Assembly (NCBI GenBank): GCA_964016885.1
Contig: OZ024743.1
Coordinates: 309,938,001-310,002,000, forward strand
Direction of reading: 5' to 3'
DNA length: 64,000 nucleotides
Origin: Eledone cirrhosa
Taxonomy: Eukaryota
In this document: positions 4,259 through 50,307 of the stretch, in pieces
Position numbering within the stretch: the stretch's first letter is position 1
How the letters are laid out: every line of letters starts with the position of its first letter
Position numbers and translations under genes: made by a program
The notes under the pieces: generated by a model
The model's database searches: none
Told to the model about the DNA's origin: nothing
What the model saw: only the letters and a program-made list of their open reading frames with translations

Positions 4259-4310
<52 letters not shown>

Positions 4311-4315
<5 letters not shown>

Positions 4316-5300
4316 ATGCTTTGGGAGGGTCATGTTGCCAATAAGAAACACACGCACTAATTGCTTTCACTCCAATTTACTATAAATAAAATTTATAAAT
4401 TTAAGAATTTCTAAATTTCCGGTTGCTTGGTTCCACAACTGGACGGTTGTTCGTGTATTGTCAAAGTTCTTTCGTCACACATTCTGTGACCACTTCAGTG
4501 ACTGGGGATTCATTTCTTTGTTTTTGTGCCCCTCCTTTGTTCTGTCCTACGTCATCTTGTTTTTGAAGGGCCCTAGATAAATATAAACTCAATATTAAGA
4601 TAGTAGAAAGACCAGGTACTTCCATAAAAACACTTATTAGCAATACATACCCTTTTCAAAGACCTCCCTGTATAGATAAGTAATGTATAATCTGTAAACT
4701 AAGCCCTCATATTAACTGTAAAACAAGAAATTTAGTATATAGCATAAGATGTACTGAAGGACAATGTAGAGATAAGAATATAGTGTACATAGGTGAGACA
4801 GCTCGTAGTATAGGAGAACGGATAAATGAACACTGGCGAGAGCTTCAAGATGGAAAAGAATCATTTGTACTCCACCAACATGCTAACATAGAATATAAGG
4901 GTAAATTAGAGAACATAGAAATAAAAATAGAATCTACACACAGAAAAGACGCATTGTTTAGACAAATCACAGAGGCAATAAACATAAATGAACTGCAACC
5001 AAAGTTAAATAGAAAACATGAAAGGAATAGCAACATCACAACTTACAATTAAGGACAAAATGAAAGAACACACACACAGATCCCCGGATGTAACACATGC
5101 GCAAACTAAGCACACAACACAAACACAAACAAGATGGCGTAGGACAGAACAAAAAAGAGGCACAAACACAAAGAAAAGAATCCCCAGTCACTGAAGAGGT
5201 CACAGAATGTGTGACGAAAGAACTTTGACAAAATATGAACAACCGTCCGGTTGTGGAACCAACCAAACAACCTGAACTTTATAAATTCTTAAATTTATAA
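4311..5300 (+). mobile_element. Penelope-like element 3' fragment: GIY-YIG endonuclease flanked by inverted (4311-4562) and direct (5125-5300) pseudo-LTR
   Basis: 4575-5052 reads Cys-rich linker + NLVYSIRC..C...VYIGETARSIGERINEH...RQITEAININELQPKLN with one stop. The pLTR copies carry an HHR. Confidence 0.85.
5187..5229 (+). ncRNA. Minimal type I hammerhead ribozyme, pLTR family A (copies 4460-4502 -, 44548-44590 -)
   Basis: gtca CTGAAGA g gtcaca-gaatg-tgtgac GAAA gaac TT tgac; stems I and II pair, stem III is minimal. Confidence 0.65.
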
Positions 5301-5691
5301 ATATTAATAGAACATCTATTTAAGGATAAGAAGGTTTTTCGCTATTTCTCTAATGTAAAGATAATTATGAATTCAAGTAATAATCAAATATATGCACTCT
5401 AACACGCACACTTATTAAAATGCTGGCCTACATTTGCAACTAAATCTATAACTTACATAAATCAAGTTATTCTAATTCTAAACAAATATATTTAGTAAAC
5501 ATATCAGTAGTATGCATTTAAACTTCATTTTTTATAATCTCTGTTTTGAACTTGATAATTATTAGAATTATTGATAATAGATGTTCTATTAATATTTATA
5601 AATTTCAACACACGTTTTCAGATAAAGAATCTTGCTAAACAAATTCAGAAACGAAATATATACGTATATATGTGTATATGTATATATATAT

Positions 5692-6485: not shown

Positions 6486-6546
<61 letters not shown>

Positions 6547-6549
<3 letters not shown>

Positions 6550-8507
6550 TATAGACATAGAATATTCGAAAATATTCTGTATGTTTATAATAAACATTTT
6601 GAAGACCTAATCGCTATAGAATAGAATACGTCACGTATTACAATTAGATTCTCGATAAAAGCAAGGGAAGTAATCTACGCGTTTCATTCTTGTTAGAAAT
6701 CATCAGGACTACATATCCGGTGCTTTTATCGAGAATGACACAGCTAGAGACTTATAGAATACTTAGCTGTGTACAGGAACTGGTTTGAAAGAGCGGTTGC
6801 CGGTCCGGCAGAAATTAGAAATTGGAATAAATGCTCTGAAATAGCGATATATATGTGAATATAGACATAGAATATTCGAAAATATTCTGTATGTTTATAA
6901 TAAACATTTTGAAGACCTAATCGCTATAGAATAGAATACGTCACGTATTACAATTAGATTCTCGATAAAAGCAAGGGAAGTAATCTACGCGTTTCATTCT
7001 TGTTAGAAATCATCAGGACTACATATCCGGTGCTTTTATCGAGAATGACACAGCTAGAGACTTATAGAATACTTAGCTGTGTACAGGAACTGGTTTGAAA
7101 GAGCGGTTGCCGGTCCGGCAGAAATTAGAAATTGGAATAAATGCTCTGAAATAGCGATATATATGTGAATATAGACATAGAATATTCGAAAATATTCTGT
7201 ATGTTTATAATAAACATTTTGAAGACCTAATCGCTATAGAATAGAATACGTCACGTATTACAATTAGATTCTCGATAAAAGCAAGGGAAGTAATCTACGC
7301 GTTTCATTCTTGTTAGAAATCATCAGGACTACATATCCGGTGCTTTTATCGAGAATGACACAGCTAGAGACTTATAGAATACTTAGCTGTGTACAGGAAC
7401 TGGTTTGAAAGAGCGGTTGCCGGTCCGGCAGAAATTAGAAATTGGAATAAATGCTCTGAAATAGCGATATATATGTGAATATAGACATAGAATATTCGAA
7501 AATATTCTGTATGTTTATAATAAACATTTTGAAGACCTAATCGCTATAGAATAGAATACGTCACGTATTACAATTAGATTCTCGATAAAAGCAAGGGAAG
7601 TAATCTACGCGTTTCATTCTTGTTAGAAATCATCAGGACTACATATCCGGTGCTTTTATCGAGAATGACACAGCTAGAGACTTATAGAATACTTAGCTGT
7701 GTACAGGAACTGGTTTGAAAGAGCGGTTGCCGGTCCGGCAGAAATTAGAAATTGGAATAAATGCTCTGAAATAGCGATATATATGTGAATATAGACATAG
7801 AATATTCGAAAAAACATACAGAATATTTTCGAATATTCTATGTCTATATTCACATATATATCGCTATTTCAGAGCATTTATTCCAATTTCTAATTTCTGC
7901 CGGACCGGCAACCGCTCTTTCAAACCAGTTCCTGTACACAGCTAAGTATTCTATAAGTCTCTAGCTGTGTCATTCTCGATAAAAGCACCGGATATGTAGT
8001 CCTGATGATTTCTAACAAGAATGAAACGCGTAGATTACTTCCCTTGCTTTTATCGAGAATCTAATTGTAATACGTGACGTATTCTATTCTATAGCGATTA
8101 GGTCTTCAAAATGTTTATTATAAACATACAGAATATTTTCGAATATTCTATGTCTATATTCACATATATATCGCTATTTCAGAGCATTTATTCCAATTTC
8201 TAATTTCTGCCGGACCGGCAACCGCTCTTTCAAACCAGTTCCTGTACACAGCTAAGTATTCTATAAGTCTCTAGCTGTGTCATTCTCGATAAAAGCACCG
8301 GATATGTAGTCCTGATGATTTCTAACAAGAATGAAACGCGTAGATTACTTCCCTTGCTTTTATCGAGAATCTAATTGTAATACGTGACGTATTCTATTCT
8401 ATAGCGATTAGGTCTTCAAAATGTTTATTATAAACATACAGAATATTTTCGAATATTCTATGTCTATATTCACATATATATCGCTATTTCAGAGCATTTA
8501 TTCCAAT
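6547..8507. repeat. 310-bp HHR-containing tandem array (retrozyme-like) with central inversion
   Basis: Unit starts at 6547, 6857, 7167, 7477, 7787 (period 310, apparently identical). It flips at ~7812 and continues ~2.2 units reversed. Flanked by (TA)n. Confidence 0.95.
7996..8038 (+). ncRNA. Minimal type I HHR of the 310-bp unit (also 8306-8348 +; 6670-6712, 6980-7022, 7290-7332, 7600-7642 -)
   Basis: gtagtc CTGATGA tttct-aaca-agaat GAAA cgcg TA gattac: 6-bp stem I, canonical core, palindromic ACGCGT stem III, GUA site. Confidence 0.85.
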
Positions 8508-21077: not shown

Positions 21078-21130
<53 letters not shown>

Positions 21131-21142
21131 TTAATATAGAGG

Positions 21143-21193
21143 AGATTCTACAGGACTAGAACTGTTTCATTCTTTAGAAATCATCAGGAATCT
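21143..21193 (-). ncRNA. Type I HHR, pLTR family B (copies 26417-26467 +, 33419-33468 +)
   Basis: agattc CTGATGA tttct-aa-agaat GAAA cag-ttctagtc-ctg TA gaatct; all three stems pair. Confidence 0.85.
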
Positions 21194-21514
21194 GGGTATC
21201 AAAAAATAAATATGGTATTTATAGGTCTCTTCAGGTGGTAGGAGAGGGTAGGGAGGGGGATGGGTGTAGGTCATTGGTTGATAGAAAAGGGAATTCATTA
21301 AAAGCTAATTCTTCAAAGCTATAGTTTATATTTAGACTAACAAAGGCAGAAAGAATTCTATAAACAAGTTCAGGATGGGGTGCCACTCCATATTTTTAAG
21401 TGTCTCTTAAGCTAACAAAGCCTTGATTTCAGGTGTCCATAAGATCATTGGTGGTCAGTCATGGTTGATGGATTTAAAGAAAAGGGAAATTCTTTAAAAG
21501 CTAATTCTAATTAA

Positions 21515-24661: not shown

Positions 24662-24694
<33 letters not shown>

Positions 24695-24700
<6 letters not shown>

Positions 24701-25651
24701 GTTAAAAATGTACATCCACATATGTATACTGAAATACTAGTATGCATATGAATACACACACGTATACATATGTAGATGTACCGAGTTTTTCACTGGTCAC
24801 TTTACTGTGGGTGTCCAGCTATTCTGTATGTAAACACACAGACAAACCGGTTTTTAGAGTCATACTGGTTTTTGAGGAAACACCTTTCCTCTATTCTCCA
24901 GAAAGCCAGACAATGAATATTGAACTAGTTTCGATGTTGTTACATCTCATCAGCAATATTTACCTATCTTCCGGCCTCTCTAGAGAATCGTAAAAGCACA
25001 TATCGTTATATGCTTTTTCTATGAAAATTAGTAGTGGGCAGACTAATTTGCATAGAGCGTGAGTACTTACCGGTTCAACGGAGACGATAAAAACAAATAA
25101 CGAAACGAAATTAAATTTCGTTTCGTTTGTAACTCACTTTTGTATGACTGACGCTTAAACAATTAAGTTAAAAATGTACATCCACATATGTATACTGAAA
25201 TACTTACGTACTCACGCTCTATGCAAATTAGTCTGCCCACTACTAATTTTCATAGAAAAAGCATATAACGATATGTGCTTTTACGATTCTCTAGAGAGGC
25301 CGGAAGATAGGTAAATATTGCTGATGAGATGTAACAACATCGAAACTAGTTCAATATTCCTTGTCTGGCTTTCTGGAGAATAGAGGAAAGGTGTTTCCTC
25401 AAAAACCAGTATGACTCTAAAAACCGGTTTGTCTGTGTGTTTACATACAGAATAGCTGGACACTCACAGTAAAGTGACCAGTGAAAAACTCGGTACATCT
25501 ACATATGTATACGTGTGTGTATTCATATGCATACTAGTATTTCAGTATACATATGTGGATGTACATTTTTAACTTAATTGTTTAAGCGTCAGTCATACAA
25601 AAGTGAGTTACAAACGAAACGAAATTTAATTTCGTTTCGTTATTTGTTTTT
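24695..25651. mobile_element. 466-bp HHR unit, ~1.1 copies then ~0.95 inverted copy; HHRs 24916-24960 (-) and 25314-25358 (+)
   Basis: The unit restarts at 25161 and inverts at ~25206. HHR reads aatattg CTGATGA gatgt-aaca-acatc GAAA ctag TT caatatt. Confidence 0.85.
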
Positions 25652-25910: not shown

Positions 25911-26597
25911 GTGTGTATATATGTATGTGTATATATGTATGTGGTTGCGCGTGAATGTGTGAGAGAGTGTGTTTGTGAATGTGTCCGTTGACTTTTGGAA
26001 TATAGTTTAAGAGAAATTGGAAGATAATGGTATGATATACATTCAATATTTTGAATTGGTCTATAGAATTCTCTTGGCCTTTGTCATTAACTAGAACCTT
26101 AAAGAATTAGCTTTTAAACAATTTCCCTTTTCTTTAAATCCATCAACCATGACTGACCCCAATGATCTTATAGACACCTGAAATCTATGCATTGTTAGCT
26201 TAAGAGAAAATTAAAAATAAGGAGTGGCACCCCATCCTGAACTTGTTTATAGAATTCTTTCTACCTTTGTTACTCTAAATATAAACTATAGCTTTGAAGA
26301 ATTAGCTTTTAATGAATTCCCTTTTCTATCAACCAATGACCTACACCCATCCCACACCCTACCCTCTCCTACCACCTGAAGAGACCTATAAATACCATAT
26401 TTATTTTTTGATACCCAGATTCCTGATGATTTCTAAAGAATGAAACAGTTCTAGTCCTGTAGAAACTCATCTATATTAAAACTTTTATACTCTGCAAAGT
26501 ATTGAGTACCTTACTTACTGTGGTTACCTCCGATTCAACCCGGAATAACGTACCTTTTAGCACTCTCTGTGCCCCTTATAACCATCATCAAGAAACT

Positions 26598-28749
26598 ATG
26601 CTGACCAAACTCGACCTTGATGTCTCCATGAAGAACATCCCTATCCCTCCAAGGAAACTATACCTAAAAACACTCATCAGACGTACCGACGAGTTCATTA
26701 AGCGAATTAGATGGAGAGCCTTCTTCCTCAACAACCCTGATGTAGCATCTACCAATGATGAGAAGTTCGGCTTCAAAACGAATAAGACACCACCCACCAA
26801 CAGCCTACTTAAACCATTTAAAGAAGACCTCTTCAAGATGATCAAAGATATAAAATTCCGTAGAGCCACCACACCATTCCAGGCCTACTTAAATACTGAA
26901 TTGCGGAATATAAAAAAATGCCCTAATCTTTATGTCTCCTCCGATAAAACCAAAAACCTTTATGAGATAGACCCACAGGACCTACAATAAGCTGGCAAAA
27001 AATTCCATCACGACCACCTACAAAAAGGTAATAGAGATGGCATTGACTGAGACAAACGCGGCCGGAAAAGAAATCGCCAAGTCGCTTAAATTACATGACC
27101 GAACCGAACCGAACCTTTAAGGGTAAAGACTCCGCACTTTACCCTGAAGGACCATAAGGGAAACTTCCTCAACAAACCATCAATCAGACTTATCAACCCC
27201 ACTCGTTCAGACATCGGCTCTATCAGTAAGAAGATCCTGGATAGTGTTCTACCATCATTGCGGGTTGCCTCACCACAAACACTCTGGAGCAGAACATCTG
27301 AGGCAATATCCTGGTTCCAAGAATTACCCGACAAACACAACACTCGCTTCCTGCAACTCGACATAGAAAACTACTATGCTTCTATCTCGGAGCCCCTCCT
27401 GAAGGACGCAATTAACTTTGCCAGGAATTTTACCACCATTACCGTTGCTGAGCAAGCTGTTATCCTCCACGCCCGTAAGACCTTTCATTACAACGATGGA
27501 TTTTACTGGATCAACAAGAAGTCTCAGACCCCATTTGACTTTAGCATGGGAGCGAGTGACTCGGCTGAAATTAGCGACCTTGTGGGCTTGTACATCCTAC
27601 ATCACTGAAGAACCTCTTTACCGGCCTAACGGGAGGTTTATACCGAGACGACGGCCTTCGCCCTGCACAAGATTAACCCCAGAACCACCGATGGGTTTCG
27701 GAGAAACTTAAGCTCGGTCTTCTCTAATCTAGGATTTAGTATAACTATAGAATCTAATATGACTAAGGCCATCTTCTTAGATGTCACTCTCGACCTAGAT
27801 ACTTCCCTCTATTACCCGTACCACAAACCTAACGAGTCCCTTAGATATATTAATGTTAATTCTAACCAACCCCAAAACATCACTGATAACTTAGTAAAAA
27901 GCGTCTCTATTAGAATCTCTGGCCTCTCTGCCAACAAAGATATTTTTAACGCCTCTGCCTCCTACTACAACGACGCCCTCGCCCGCAGCGGATTTAAAGA
28001 TAAGATAACCTACCTAGAAACCACCGCAAGATTGCAGAGGGGGAATAGGCATAGGCAGATTAGCTGGTACAACCCTCCTTTCAATAGAGAGGTCTCTACA
28101 CCGACAGCTAGGATTTTCTTCACTTTGCTGAAAACACACCTCCCCATACAACATAGGTACTACACCATCTTTAATAAGAACACAATAAGACTCTCCTACT
28201 CCACCACACCTAACCTAGCTAGGAATATAGTCAACCACAATTCTAAAAAATTAAATAAGCCAACCACCTCCGAACCCAATCCCCGGACTGGGCTTTGTGT
28301 AATTGCCTAAATAAGGAAGCATGCCCACTTGAAAACAAATGCCTCACAAATGATATTGTATACAAATGCGATGTCATCTCAGGCACCGATGATTGCAATA
28401 ACAAAAAAACTTACATTGTTATGACTTCCAATAATTTTAAGACCCGTTGGTATGCCCATACCCACTCCTTCAGAAGACCGGACAATTCAAACCAGACAAC
28501 ACTCGCCTCCTATGTTTGGGACCTCAAAAGGAACTCCACCCCTTCACGCTTAAATGAAAAATACTCCAGAAAGCGCGCTCTTACAACGGAGGACACAAGG
28601 GCTGCGACCTTTGTATCTCAGAGAGCTACGAAATTTTATTCGCCAAGGGCCGGCTACTGAACAGACTCTCTGAACACTGCCTGAACTGCATGCACAAGAA
28701 CTTTGCAACTTTCAAATATCTTAAGCCAGTGTTAAAGGCTGATGGCTAA
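26598..28749 (+). pseudogene. Frameshifted PLE reverse transcriptase + GIY-YIG endonuclease ORF
   Basis: SMKNIP...IRLINP...LDIENYY...MGASDSAEISDLVGLY...YRDDGL...FLDVTLDL...CNCLNKEACPL..CL..IVYKC...YI..T...FKTRW..H; several frameshifts and stops. Confidence 0.9.
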
Positions 28750-29284: not shown

Positions 29285-31832
29285 GAACCTCCCGCATCAA
29301 ATGCTCTGCCTCCTTCACTGTATTTGTCACCAAAACTATGTCGTCGGCAAATTCAGCATCCGATACCTTTTTCGCCATAACTCTTCTGCTCTGAGCCAGT
29401 AAAGCCAGAGTCCTGGTGTTTCTCCAGTGCAAGGCGCATACAATAGTCCACTACGATGATAAAAATGTAGGGAGCCAATGCATCTCCCTGGAGCACTCCA
29501 GCCAGTATCTCAAAGAACTCTGTCATCCCATCAGGCGTAATGACTTGGGCTTTGGTGTTGGTGTAGAGCAGTGATATCAGGTCCACTATATTCTTGGGGA
29601 TTCCATAAGCCTGTAAGATCTTCATCAGGCAGTAACGGTCCACAGAGTCAAAGGCCTTCCTAAAGTCAATGAAAACCATGACCACAGGAAGGCAATTTGC
29701 TCTAGCTCCCTCTAATATCCTCCTAAGCATCAGGATGTGACTGGTGGTTGATCTATCCTCTCTGAAGCCGTTCTGGTTGTCCCTGAGCTTCTTCTCCATC
29801 TCAGGCTGGATCCTGTTAAGAATCATCCTGTTGAGGGTCTTTGCCACAAGTGACGTCAGTGAGATCCCCCTGTAGTTGTTGGTCTTAGAGAGATCTCCCT
29901 TCTTTGGCACTGGGACGATGTTACTGATCCTCCACTGAATCCGGGCAACTCCCTTCTCCAGTGCCCCGTTACAGAACCCCAGGATGATATCATCAAAATC
30001 ACACCTCTTCATCACCTCTGATGCCACTCCATCTTCTCCATGAGCCTTGCCCTCCTTGATCCTCTTCTTGGCTCTCTGACGCTCCTGTCTGGTGAAGGGC
30101 TCTGTCTCAACATCCAGTTCCTCAAACAGCCACCTGATCTGCCCAGTGCTCTGGGCTGTGGAGGGTGGCCCTCCTAGTAGGGTCCTAAAATGGTCTAGCC
30201 ATTTCCTCTTCCTATCCTCGGGCCCCGTTCCCTGGATCTGACTCGAACACCTTCTCTTCCTCCCTGTGATCTCGTTGATGATCATCCAGCTCTCCTTACA
30301 TCCAGATTTGTCAACCGCTCTCTCCACACTTCTGATCTTCTCTATCAGTGCCTCCTCTCTGACCTCAGTGTAAGCGGTACAGAGTTCTTCCCCAATCACC
30401 TCCACAGTCTCCATCCTCTCCTCCGTAGGATCAGCATAGAATTGGACCTTGGCAGCCTTCAGGTGTTCTCTGGCTGCACACACTTTTGGGTTTGCAGAGC
30501 TGACGTGCTTCCCTTTGTTCTTTTTCCTCGGCATCAGGGTTTCATTTGCTTCCGCCACTGCATTGGTGAAGTGCCCGTACCTCCATGCAATCTCTCTCTC
30601 CTCTGACTCTCCACACAGAGCACTAAACCTGTTTCTCACTTCCACTGTGAACCTCTCCTGTAACTTATCATCTTCCTTGAAAGCTCTCCAGTCATGGATT
30701 GCTCTCCGGGGTCGAGCCTTGCTCTTTCTTAAGCTCACCCGGACCTCACTCATAACAAGCCGGTGGTCACTACCCAGTGTACTGAAATAACTGTATGGTT
30801 CTGTGTTCAGAACACTTTTTCCTCACCAGAATGAAATCAATCTGGGACTTGGACAGGTGCACATCTGAGATGTAGGTCCACATCTTCCCCAGATTCTTCC
30901 TAAACCTTAGGTTGGTCGCCATCAAGTTCGCCTCCAGCAGGCTGTCTCTCAGTAGTCTTCCATTTCGGTTGGTGTTGTTATGGAAGTACCAGAAAGGATC
31001 TTCACTGCCCTCCTTACTCAGATGTGCATTGAAGTCCCCCAAAACAAGCAGGATATTGTGTGCCTGAGTGGTGTTGACAGCTCTACACACCTCATGGAAC
31101 TCGGTTGGACTATAGGCTGAGATGACTGTCAGTCTTGGGTTTCCATTGAAGGTCACCCTCAACACTCGCGGGGAGATAGGCATTATTTCCCTCACCAACA
31201 GATTGGTTCCTGCACTGAACACAAAACCCACTCCTCCTACTGCAGCATTTGTTGTGTTCTTCCCTGCCGATGTAGTGATGAGCTGGCTCCTCTTCCCGAT
31301 CATCACACTCCTCACGGGCTCATCGTGTAGGATCCTGTGTTCTTGGATCGCAAGTATCTGTATACCACTCTCCTCGAACAGATGTCCCAACTCCTCTCTC
31401 TTCTCCAGTGTCCGAATAGTCCTCACATTCAAAGTGCCCATTTTGATGGCTCTTCAGCAGGACAAATCTGCATTCTTTATATTTGTCTCAGAGACAGCTG
31501 ACCCATCATCCACTGGCCCCCTCTGTGGCTCTAAGCCAGCAGAGTCATAACGACCAGGCTGCTCCTTGACAGTGTAATTAGGGGCTCTAACCCTAGTGCT
31601 GTTAGATCGACTCTCCATATTTCTTTTCAAATGGCTGACAATACCTTACCGGCGCCACGCGAATAAGATAGTTATTTAACCCATAAATGGAGCCCTAACG
31701 GGTACTAGCACCCCAGGCCAGGGCAGACCTGGGAGTCATGACAACTAAGGGGTAACTCCACATTCCCCACAACACCTGAACTCCCGAACTGGAGCCTTGC
31801 CACTGGATGTAGTTTAATGTCATACCCAGGAC
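29285..31832 (-). mobile_element. RTE-clade LINE, 3'-truncated: 5' UTR, AP endonuclease and RT
   Basis: GTLNVRT..IQEHR..SAYSPT..LGDFNA..QIDFIL (30770-31441); NYRGISL..QNGFR..FIDFRKAFDSV..GVLQG (29353-30753); FADD after an 8-nt deletion. Confidence 0.92.
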
Positions 31833-32923: not shown

Positions 32924-33572
32924 ATATATGTATGTGTGAGTGTATGTCGGTGCGCGCGTGTGAGTGAGTGTGTTTGTGAATGTGTCTCTTGACTTTTGGA
33001 ATATAGTTTAAGAGATATTTGAAGATAATGGTATGATATGCACTCAATATTTTGAACTGATCTATAGAATTCTCTAGTTTTTTGTCACTAAGGAGTACCT
33101 CAAATTATTAGCTTCGAAAGAATTTCTCTTTTCTTTAAATCCATCAACCATGACTGACCCACAATGATATTATAGACATCTGAAATATAGGCATTGTTAG
33201 CTTAAGAGAAACTTTAAAATAATGAGTGGCACTCCATCCTGAACTTGATTATAGAATTCTTTCTGCCTTTGTTACTCTAAATATAAACTATAGCTTTGAA
33301 GAATTAGCTTTTAATGAATTCCCTTTTCTATCAACCAATGACCTACACCCATTCCCCTCCCGACCCTCTACGACCACCTGAAGAAACCTATAAATACCAT
33401 ATTTATTTTTTGATACCCAGATTCCTGATGATTTCTAAAAATGAAACAGTTCTAGTCCTGTAGAATCTCATGTATATTAAAACTTTTATACTCTGCAATG
33501 TATTGAGTATCTTACTTACTGTGTTTACCTCCGATTCAACCCGGAATAACGTATATATATATATATATGTAT

Positions 33573-49672: not shown

Positions 49673-49690
49673 ATATATATATATACATAT

Positions 49691-50218
49691 ATTAGAATTG
49701 GCGCTCTGAAATAGCGATATATATATGAATGTATATATAGTGTACTTTGCAATACAGCGTATGCTTAATTAAAAGCATTTCGAAAACTATTGTTTTAGAG
49801 TAGTGACAGTCTCACTTACTTTTAATTTTCAGCAAACATGGGAGATAAAGCTGACAGAGCTGTGTTTCGTACTGATTGGTACTTATCAAAGCCAAGTACT
49901 CCACCTATATCGCTATTTCAGAGCGCCAATTCTAATTTTAAATTTCTGCTTGACCGGCAATCGTTCTGTATAATCAGTTCCTGATTATTACTAGAAATTC
50001 TATAAGAATCAAACATTCATGATTTTCAGCAAACAGGTGGAGTACTTGGCTTTGATAAGTACCAATCAGTACGAAACACAGCTCTGTCAGCTTTATCTCC
50101 CCTGTTTGCTGAAAACTAAAATTAAGTGAGACTGTCACTACTCTAAAACAATAGCGTAAGGTCTTCGAAATGCTTTTAGTTAAGCATACGGTGTATTGCA
50201 AAATACACTATATATGCA

Positions 50219-50223
<5 letters not shown>
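49691..50223. mobile_element. ~317-nt HHR unit (49907-50223) preceded by an inverted partial copy; HHRs 50048-50092 (+) and 49849-49893 (-)
   Basis: ggct TTGATAA gtac-caatca-gtac GAAA ca-cagctc-tg TC agct; backbone homologous to the 310-bp unit. Confidence 0.8.

Positions 50224-50307
<84 letters not shown>

What the first reader, a model, noticed from the sequence alone, without database searches (positions are those of the whole stretch)
49907..50223. Two divergent ~310-nt hammerhead RNAs share a covarying multi-hairpin architecture (candidate structured, possibly circular, RNA family)
Seen: this unit and the array unit (7858-8167) are collinear. Both have ATATCGCTATTTCAGAGC, AATTTCTGC..GACCGGCAA, CAGTTCCTG, ATTCTATAAG and ATAGCG..AGGTCTTC.AAATG. 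The paired regions differ in sequence but still pair. The helix enclosing the HHR is ATTCTCGATAAAAGCA/TGCTTTTATCGAGAAT (16 bp) versus TTTTCAGCAAACAGG/CCTGTTTGCTGAAAA (15 bp). Distal hairpins are ATGTTTA..TAAACAT versus ATGCTT..AAGCAT, and GAATATT..AATATTC versus GTGTATT..AATACAC. The HHRs also differ (CUGAUGA with GUA versus UUGAUAA with GUC). Both loci read through the tail-to-head junction. Known: metazoan non-LTR retrozymes are small HHR repeats that yield circRNAs and are thought to be mobilised by PLEs. Inference: selection acts on an RNA fold well beyond the ribozyme, perhaps an RT-recognition or replication scaffold. I cannot tell whether this family is already described.
Basis: partly seen in the sequence, partly recalled or inferred. 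Interest (0 to 1): 0.88.

Follow-up and report, generated by a model that had tools for sequence, protein, structure and literature searches.

The report
Retrozyme lineage with conserved RNA scaffold
These two repeats are distant members of one very abundant family of protein-free jumping elements carrying a hammerhead self-cutting RNA motif (a known kind), and paired mutations across twelve successive versions show that base-pairing outside the hammerhead has been kept, likely including the part that a Penelope-type copying enzyme would grip.

Summary
Observation confirmed. The two units (64% identical) are end members of one non-LTR retrozyme lineage; I recovered 12 subfamilies of 310-329 nt; one 19-mer alone has 21,257 genome matches. 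Both carry type I hammerheads (GUA; GUC with a U3-A8 swap). Covariation outside the ribozyme is strong for the helix that clamps it (9 of 13 pairs, P about 0.001), moderate for three distal hairpins (6 of 24, P about 0.02), and weak where sequence is near-invariant. New: a predicted long-range GACC/GGUC pair with one compensatory change, beside the two fixed insertion ends. The flagged locus is half of a two-armed inverted insertion (49691-50231) in (TA)n with one 30-nt tail, the Penelope footprint; 57 of 57 young insertions have one tail (most were picked by tail; one two-tailed copy exists in family B). Units share array-wide variants that keep pairing, and truncations ignore the cleavage site, which favours rolling-circle copying of a circle (about 60%). 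No RNA data; no partner element found. The class is published, and this scan already noted the two-armed pattern for the 310-nt family on other DNA; the subfamily covariation map is what this adds.

The parts
49673..49690 (.). (TA)n target remnant left of the insertion
49691..49720 (-). 30-nt tail (unit positions 1-30) ending the left arm; inferred reverse-transcription start site 1
   Evidence: tail = distance between two RT start sites in PMC11167929
49721..49906 (-). Left arm: 5'-truncated inverted copy (unit 129-321) with second hammerhead (core at 49889, cleavage after 49853); shares three variants with the right arm
49907..50227 (+). Right arm: one full family B unit (321 nt), no tail
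49911..49967 (+). Near-invariant 5' domain: 5' strand of P1, helix P2, single-stranded linker with start site 1, hairpin P3 whose loop holds GACC (49952-49955)
49998..50006 (+). Invariant cap of hairpin P5; outer stem differs between subfamilies
50023..50115 (+). Clamp helix P6 (50023-50037 with 50101-50115) enclosing the hammerhead; 9 of 13 pairs with compensatory change
50039..50100 (+). Type I hammerhead, U3-A8 core variant (core 50052-50058), predicted cleavage after 50088 (GUC); stem III weakened in this haplotype
50122..50143 (+). Hairpin P7
50151..50166 (+). 3' strand of P1 (50151-50156) and conserved GGUC (50160-50163), predicted partner of the P3 loop (pseudoknot-type pair)
   Evidence: counter-example
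50170..50209 (+). Distal hairpins P8 and P9, just upstream of inferred start site 2
50222..50298 (.). (TA)n target remnant at the tail-less end
6537..7812 (-). Family A left arm: 4 full 310-nt units plus 279-310, no tail, ends in (TA)n
7812..8507 (+). Family A right arm: 265-310, 2 full units, 30-nt tail (8478-8507); hammerhead cleavage after 8032 and 8342

Best explanation
Both units are members of one non-coding, hammerhead-bearing repeat lineage (a non-LTR retrozyme) with Penelope-type insertion ends, whose base-pairing outside the hammerhead is conserved across 12 subfamilies, and which is likely copied from a circular RNA by a Penelope-type enzyme that would recognise the conserved fold. 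Steps. (1, inferred) Arrays are transcribed into multimers. (2, inferred from anatomy and PMC4209133) The hammerhead has a short palindromic stem III, so it would cut well in multimers and poorly in a monomer, sparing the circle. (3, covariation shown, role inferred) The 13-16 bp clamp P6 extends stem I and would hold the two cut ends together for ligation. (4, invariance shown, role inferred) P1-P3, the predicted GACC/GGUC contact and P8/P9 surround two fixed end points 30 nt apart and would form the enzyme's binding and start site. (5, footprint shown, chemistry inferred) Both strands of a (TA)n target prime, one at each start site; each cDNA runs through the unit many times without stopping at the cleavage site; the two cDNA ends are joined by short complementarity, giving two inverted arms with one tail.
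For: Architecture: 63 of 71 family A loci parsed are two-armed (the other 8: cut by my fetch or a gap, single-armed, or one skipped complex locus); 57 of 57 with both ends visible have exactly one tail; 4 of 126 truncation points lie within 5 nt of the cleavage site (4.5 expected); central microhomology >=2 nt in 68% of 47 blunt/overlapping joints vs 18% simulated; arm lengths correlate (rho 0.39, P=0.003). One template: 59 insertions with >=2 units (505 units) fall into 30 array-wide haplotypes; unit-private change is 0.06% per base against 4.3 fixed differences between insertions. Array-wide variants in helices keep pairing in 11 of 14 cases and none of 40 hits the core; unit-private ones keep pairing in 8 and break a helix or the core in 30 (Fisher P=2.5e-4). 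Subfamily covariation: P6 9/13 pairs (null 4.1+-1.5, P=0.001), P7+P8+P9 6/24 (null 2.7+-1.3, P=0.016), all non-hammerhead helices except P6 and P4 8/49 (P=0.002); C3-G8 to U3-A8 swap in S0, B2, B and G. RNAalifold on 27 real copies recovers P6, stem I, P7, P9 and the long-range pair unprompted; 94% of cells paired, 13 of 49 pairs with double change vs 5-11 in slid controls. Literature: class and circle model PMC7229834; tail, inverted arm and (TA)n bias PMC8557442; two internal start sites, both strands extended PMC11167929.
Against: No cleavage, circle or transcript was observed. In PMC11167929 hammerhead mutants insert normally in vitro and uncut RNA is the main substrate; in the 2026 preprint 8 of 9 Xenopus dimers did not cleave. 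L304 switches haplotype after two units in both arms and L165 has one variant in the first unit of both arms, which fits a multimer template; long arrays show irregular repeated variants (DNA-level exchange). Core sparing alone is not significant (0/40 vs 6/81, P=0.18). 60 of the 71 A loci were chosen by a tail pattern, so tail-less insertions are under-sampled; in family B one insertion has no tail (L029) and one has two (L383). The long-range pair rests on one event on the tree, and one S1b insertion carries the unpaired combination in its template (L380). No coding partner with the same tail was found. My null model is home-made and the structure was derived from the same sequences; four subfamily consensuses rest on 3-4 copies.
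Confidence: 0.62

Rival explanations
1. Same element and same enzyme, but the template is an uncut linear multimer transcribed from an existing array; arrays are re-expanded and homogenised at the DNA level, and the hammerhead acts at another stage.
For: In-register variants in both arms of L304 and L165; irregular repeated variants in L301-L303; a 2-kb higher-order repeat of B units in L348; hammerhead dispensable in vitro for PAc.
Against: Pure linear copying can only shorten arrays, yet very young arrays reach 20-30 units with array-wide rare variants in both inverted arms (L301, L305, L306); unit-private variants recur between insertions in only 3 internal positions; L154 switches out of register.
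Confidence: 0.24
2. The template is a cut monomer whose ends are held by the clamp helix (a nicked circle); the enzyme jumps the nick each round.
For: The clamp would juxtapose the ends; array-wide 1-nt insertions occur at position 177, two bases past the cleavage site, in 6 of 59 insertions.
Against: No excess of truncations at the site (4 of 126); those insertions are also compatible with stem I pairing.
Confidence: 0.08
3. The paired changes come from mutation, not selection: template switching between hairpin arms perfects quasi-palindromes, and A-to-I editing of double-stranded RNA supplies the A-to-G changes.
For: Central joints often use hairpin arms (overlaps of 11-22 nt in 6 loci), so arm-to-arm switching happens; 8 of the 11 pairing-compatible array-wide changes are A-to-G, and A>G outnumbers T>C 11 to 4 among array-wide variants vs 5 to 10 among private ones.
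Against: G.U intermediates that lower DNA palindromy are kept in many subfamilies; the non-hairpin C3-G8/U3-A8 swap and the GACC/GGUC change cannot arise by palindrome repair; editing would itself need the helices to form in RNA.
Confidence: 0.06

Closest known systems
Metazoan non-LTR retrozymes (Cervera and de la Pena 2020, PMC7229834; parts 2-4 of 6 read: results and discussion; supplement not read)
   Same: Short AT-rich tandem units with one type I hammerhead; axolotl-like weak stem III and U.U at the base of stem II in family A; proposed circle-to-tandem-cDNA cycle.
   Different: There circles and cleavage were shown and the insertion step proposed; here no RNA data, but insertion footprints and a 12-subfamily covariation map. 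That text does not describe conserved helices outside the ribozyme by covariation.
Vertebrate retrozymes as non-autonomous PLE derivatives (Li, Clavereau, Pollet 2026, 10.64898/2026.07.22.740005; parts 1-3 of 5 read; supplements closed)
   Same: Co-occurrence with Penelope-like elements, monomer-to-multimer insertions, unit size near 310.
   Different: They link families to pLTRs by sequence; I found no matching coding element. They do not analyse tails, arms or structure in the parts read.
Penelope-like element insertions (Craig et al. 2021, PMC8557442, passages; Frangieh et al. 2024, PMC11167929, parts 1-2 of 4)
   Same: Inverted 5'-truncated copy, 30-40 nt tail at one end, (TA)n bias, two internal start sites, both strands extended; non-autonomous head-to-tail families known in Chlamydomonas.
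   Different: No ORF; arms of up to 30 units; start sites partition almost strictly one per arm, whereas PAc in vitro showed no strand difference.
U3-A8 and dimer-dependent hammerheads of PLEs (Cervera and de la Pena 2014, PMC4209133, passages)
   Same: U3-A8 core variant; short palindromic helix III proposed to spare monomeric circles.
   Different: Here the swap is seen changing state along one dated lineage inside a 13-16 bp clamp.

Membership tests
Non-LTR retrozyme | Type I hammerhead in each unit | tested here: met
   (sequence and structure only)
Non-LTR retrozyme | Short (150-450 bp), GC<50% tandem units in many copies | tested here: met
   310-329 nt; family A 34% GC; 21,257 motif matches
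Non-LTR retrozyme | No protein coding, no LTR architecture | tested here: met
   No ORF of 120 aa over either locus; ends as parsed. PBS/PPT not searched separately.
Non-LTR retrozyme | Transcribed, self-cleaving, accumulates as linear and circular monomer | not testable with these tools
   No RNA holder listed
Non-LTR retrozyme | Target-site duplications longer than 4 bp when present | tested here: inconclusive
   Ends lie in (TA)n
Non-autonomous Penelope-like element | Tail at one end, inverted 5'-truncated arm, microsatellite target | tested here: met
Non-autonomous Penelope-like element | Penelope-like coding elements in the same genome | tested here: met
   GIY-YIG fragment with 35,124 first-look candidates, 150 scored; clade labels are from recall
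Non-autonomous Penelope-like element | Terminal sequence shared with an identified coding partner | tested here: inconclusive
   None among GIY-YIG/RT hits in about 1 Mb of fetched DNA or one family search; not a genome-wide test
Viroid-like self-replicating RNA | Ribozymes in both polarities and RNA-to-RNA replication | tested here: not met
   The scan finds one hammerhead per unit, sense polarity only; replication not testable

The most novel reading that the evidence does not exclude
The conserved domain is a compact, pseudoknotted RNA template-positioning module, loosely like telomerase RNA for the telomerase-related Penelope RT: the P3 loop pairs with GGUC beyond P1, presenting two start sites 30 nt apart to the two active sites of an enzyme dimer, which then copies one RNA circle from both strands of a DNA break. 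The 310-nt circle would be a minimal natural substrate that explains the Penelope tail and inverted arms and makes programmable multi-copy insertion testable.
Probability: 0.25. Interest if true: 0.8.

Novelty: new member of a known kind. Interest (0 to 1): 0.52.

Why it matters
How animal retrozymes are written back into DNA, and what RNA feature a Penelope RT recognises, are open questions. This lineage offers a dated series of twelve natural variants that separates a fast-changing but always-paired clamp from a near-invariant domain around the two insertion ends, plus hundreds of very young insertions that record the copying. That gives a short list of pairs to mutate and a 310-nt substrate for the in vitro Penelope assay. 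The element class itself is not new.

Tried and rejected
No RNA holder listed for the 310-nt unit; this says nothing on expression. Laying four runs of unknown kind: X1 behaves like whole-genome DNA (492 contigs, depth about 5e5); X2-X4 each give one 340-nt self-closing contig at depth 10-26, which a collapsed tandem repeat or cross-contamination gives as well as a circle; not used. The same test for family B gave no result, so relative read depth of A and B is open. Metagenome pattern scan: 0 matches. Rfam gathering scan: 0. Partner search: the window's two Penelope-like remnants (4684-5052; 26463-28660) and others in fetched flanks end in different tails; patterns meant to catch diverged contexts returned only length variants or mutated copies. 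Idea that the hammerhead was swapped between A and B: rejected, the subfamily series changes it stepwise. Idea that 5' truncations pile up at the cleavage site: rejected. First regex extraction of helices mis-anchored P4, P6, P7 and was redone. Rows left out: S1c from P9, A from P7, all of P4. Earlier run with 11 subfamilies gave weaker distal support (non-P6 double changes P=0.17); adding subfamily G raised it. Literature searches (listings only unless a paper is named as read) found no covariation study of an animal retrozyme scaffold and no twin-priming account for Penelope elements; subscription papers, Repbase/Dfam and the preprint's supplements were not visible and may hold this family.

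Full report
Check of the observation. The unit at 49907 and the array unit at 7858 are collinear: global score 259 against 95 +- 10 for 200 shuffles, 64% identity between family consensuses. A descriptor scan finds type I hammerheads in both, with predicted cleavage after 8032 and 50088; Rfam sees them only weakly. Family A has a minimal palindromic stem III and a U.U at the base of stem II, like the axolotl motifs in PMC7229834. Family B has the U3-A8 core known from PMC4209133. The flagged unit folds at z = -4.9; circular folds of four consensuses at z = -3.9 to -7.9 (40 shuffles each).

The locus is larger than flagged. It runs 49691-50231: an inverted arm (unit 129-321 plus a 30-nt tail) and a full 321-nt arm without tail, both ending in (TA)n. 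The arms share three variants, one seen in only this insertion among those parsed, so they came from one template. The array at 6537-8507 has the same design.

Abundance and lineage. One 19-mer has 21,257 exact matches in the 3.0-Gb genome; tail-into-(TA)n patterns give 1,143 (family A) and 859 (B/S3 type); a motif of older copies gives 3,234. From 86 aligned rows (84 older copies plus the A and B consensuses) and 27 further loci I defined 12 subfamilies: a ladder S0, S1a-d, S2, S2b, S3, B2, B (main steps 93-100% bootstrap) and a second branch with G and A (87%). Divergence from own consensus falls from 8% (S0, heterogeneous) through 5% (S1a), 3.7% (S3) to 2.1% (B); A is almost undiverged. Groups were drawn by eye from the tree; S1c, S2b and B2 rest on 3-4 copies, S0, S1d and S2 on 5. 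The host is an animal; earlier AI notes call it octopod-like, which I did not test.

Individually folded consensuses share nine helices. Against a null that keeps the tree and the number of changes per column: the clamp P6 has 9 of 13 pairs with compensatory change (null 4.1 +- 1.5, P = 0.001) and one mispair type (null 16.7); P7+P8+P9 have 6 of 24 (null 2.7 +- 1.3, P = 0.016); P8+P9 alone 3 of 14 (P = 0.13); P1-P3 1 of 18 (P = 0.30) because they hardly vary; P5's outer stem is rebuilt rather than covarying (6 mispair types, null 3.7). With 11 subfamilies the non-P6 count was not significant (P = 0.17). As a check on unedited data, RNAalifold on 27 real copies recovered P6, stem I, P7 and P9, and pair counting gave 94.2% paired cells and 13 of 49 pairs with double change, against 9.5 +- 1.6 in shuffles (13 of 500) and 5-11 in slid controls; three of the 13 come from family A's shifted P7. 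These are not R-scape values, and the structure came from the same sequences.

RNAalifold joined GACC in the P3 loop to the conserved GGUC after P1. It is A-U in 75 of 76 older non-G copies and G-C in 13 of 15 informative G copies. The base before GACC varies in family B, as a one-base pseudoknot loop would allow (inference). This is one event on the tree, and insertion L380 carries GGCC in both arms with an unchanged loop in the arm that covers it. I give the contact about 40%. It would explain why both stretches stay fixed, and it links the two flanks of the tail.

Insertion footprint. Of 71 family A loci, 63 are two-armed; all 57 with both ends visible have one tail, 33 right and 24 left. 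Sixty of the 71 were picked by a tail pattern, so this tests two tails, not none. In family B, 13 of 23 two-armed parses are cleanly one tail plus one junction end, one has no tail, and the rest are partial or mis-parsed; of two opposed tail pairs in the first 100 listed places, one is two adjacent insertions and one a true two-tailed copy. The tail-less end often overwrites unit base 306 with target sequence (25 units), as target priming would. Truncation points ignore the cleavage site (4 of 126 within 5 nt, 4.5 expected), central joints are rich in microhomology, and arm lengths correlate. Tail, inverted arm and (TA)n bias are the Penelope hallmarks of PMC8557442; PMC11167929 shows the tail is the distance between two internal RT start sites and that both strands are extended.

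Template. In 59 insertions with two or more units there are 30 array-wide haplotypes, while unit-private change is 0.06% per base. Array-wide changes avoid the core (0 of 40 vs 6 of 81, not significant alone) and keep helices paired (11 of 14) where private ones mostly do not (Fisher P = 2.5e-4 with core hits). Eight of the 11 are A-to-G, so editing of double-stranded RNA may contribute; either way they point to an RNA template with this fold. Arrays of 20-30 units carrying a rare variant throughout need repeated copying of one unit. Against a pure monomer circle: L304 and L165 show in-register differences in both arms, L193 differs between arms, and long arrays have been reshuffled as DNA.

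Mechanism. Most likely: multimer transcript, dimer-assisted hammerhead cutting, clamp-assisted ligation, then a Penelope RT-endonuclease binding the conserved domain, priming from both target strands at the two start sites, rolling round the circle and joining the cDNAs by microhomology. Shown: fold conservation, ends, homogeneity. Inferred: transcription, cleavage, circle, enzyme. Retrozyme membership about 0.9, selection on P6 about 0.95, on distal hairpins about 0.75, circle as main template about 0.6.

Comparison and novelty. The class, the circles and the rolling-copy proposal are in PMC7229834 and PMC4209133; the Penelope origin in the 2026 preprint. Searches found no covariation study of an animal retrozyme scaffold. 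This scan had already reported the two-armed footprint for the 310-nt family and sister families on other DNA; I reached it independently before looking. A sequence look-up for the 321-nt unit found nothing. What this finding adds is the subfamily series, the split between a variable clamp and an invariant end domain, and the candidate long-range pair. Verdict: real, a new member of a known kind, with testable mechanistic detail; interest 0.52.

Noticed in passing
window 24690-25640: Another two-armed inverted hammerhead repeat in (TA)n with a longer tail (about 75 nt) and a weak profile match to this lineage (E 0.02; sequence).
   Followed up: partly
window 12122, 32412, 50771, 52080: Four copies of a further type I hammerhead family with a long stem II.
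   Followed up: no
window 26300-28660 (also 21080-21300, 33300-33560): Broken Penelope-like element whose pLTR hammerhead core resembles family A's stem II region; different tail.
   Followed up: partly
window 4271-5660: Truncated Penelope-like GIY-YIG copy with inverted arm and hammerhead-like pLTR; very abundant family; its tail start is loosely similar to the retrozyme tail start.
   Followed up: partly
window 33827, 40230, 50486: Three more hammerhead motifs of other families.
   Followed up: no
L348 (G000:C28:5643000-5650000): Family B units amplified as a roughly 2-kb higher-order repeat: a retrozyme turning into satellite DNA.
   Followed up: no
family A loci L141-L200: Array-wide variants show A>G 11 vs T>C 4, private ones 5 vs 10: possible A-to-I editing captured by reverse transcription.
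   Followed up: partly
L154:306-4321: An A-to-G change appears after the fourth unit of the tail arm and in the whole other arm, suggesting the tail arm is begun first.
   Followed up: partly
L382:395-1547: Two subfamilies inserted back to back in one (TA)n; the B-like one has yet another stem II/III sequence.
   Followed up: no
family B unit position 173 (window 50079): Common variants (8 and 11 loci) break the third pair of stem III, as if weaker monomer cleavage were tolerated or favoured.
   Followed up: no
window 29353-31453: LINE-type endonuclease and RT frames on the minus strand, unrelated to the finding.
   Followed up: no
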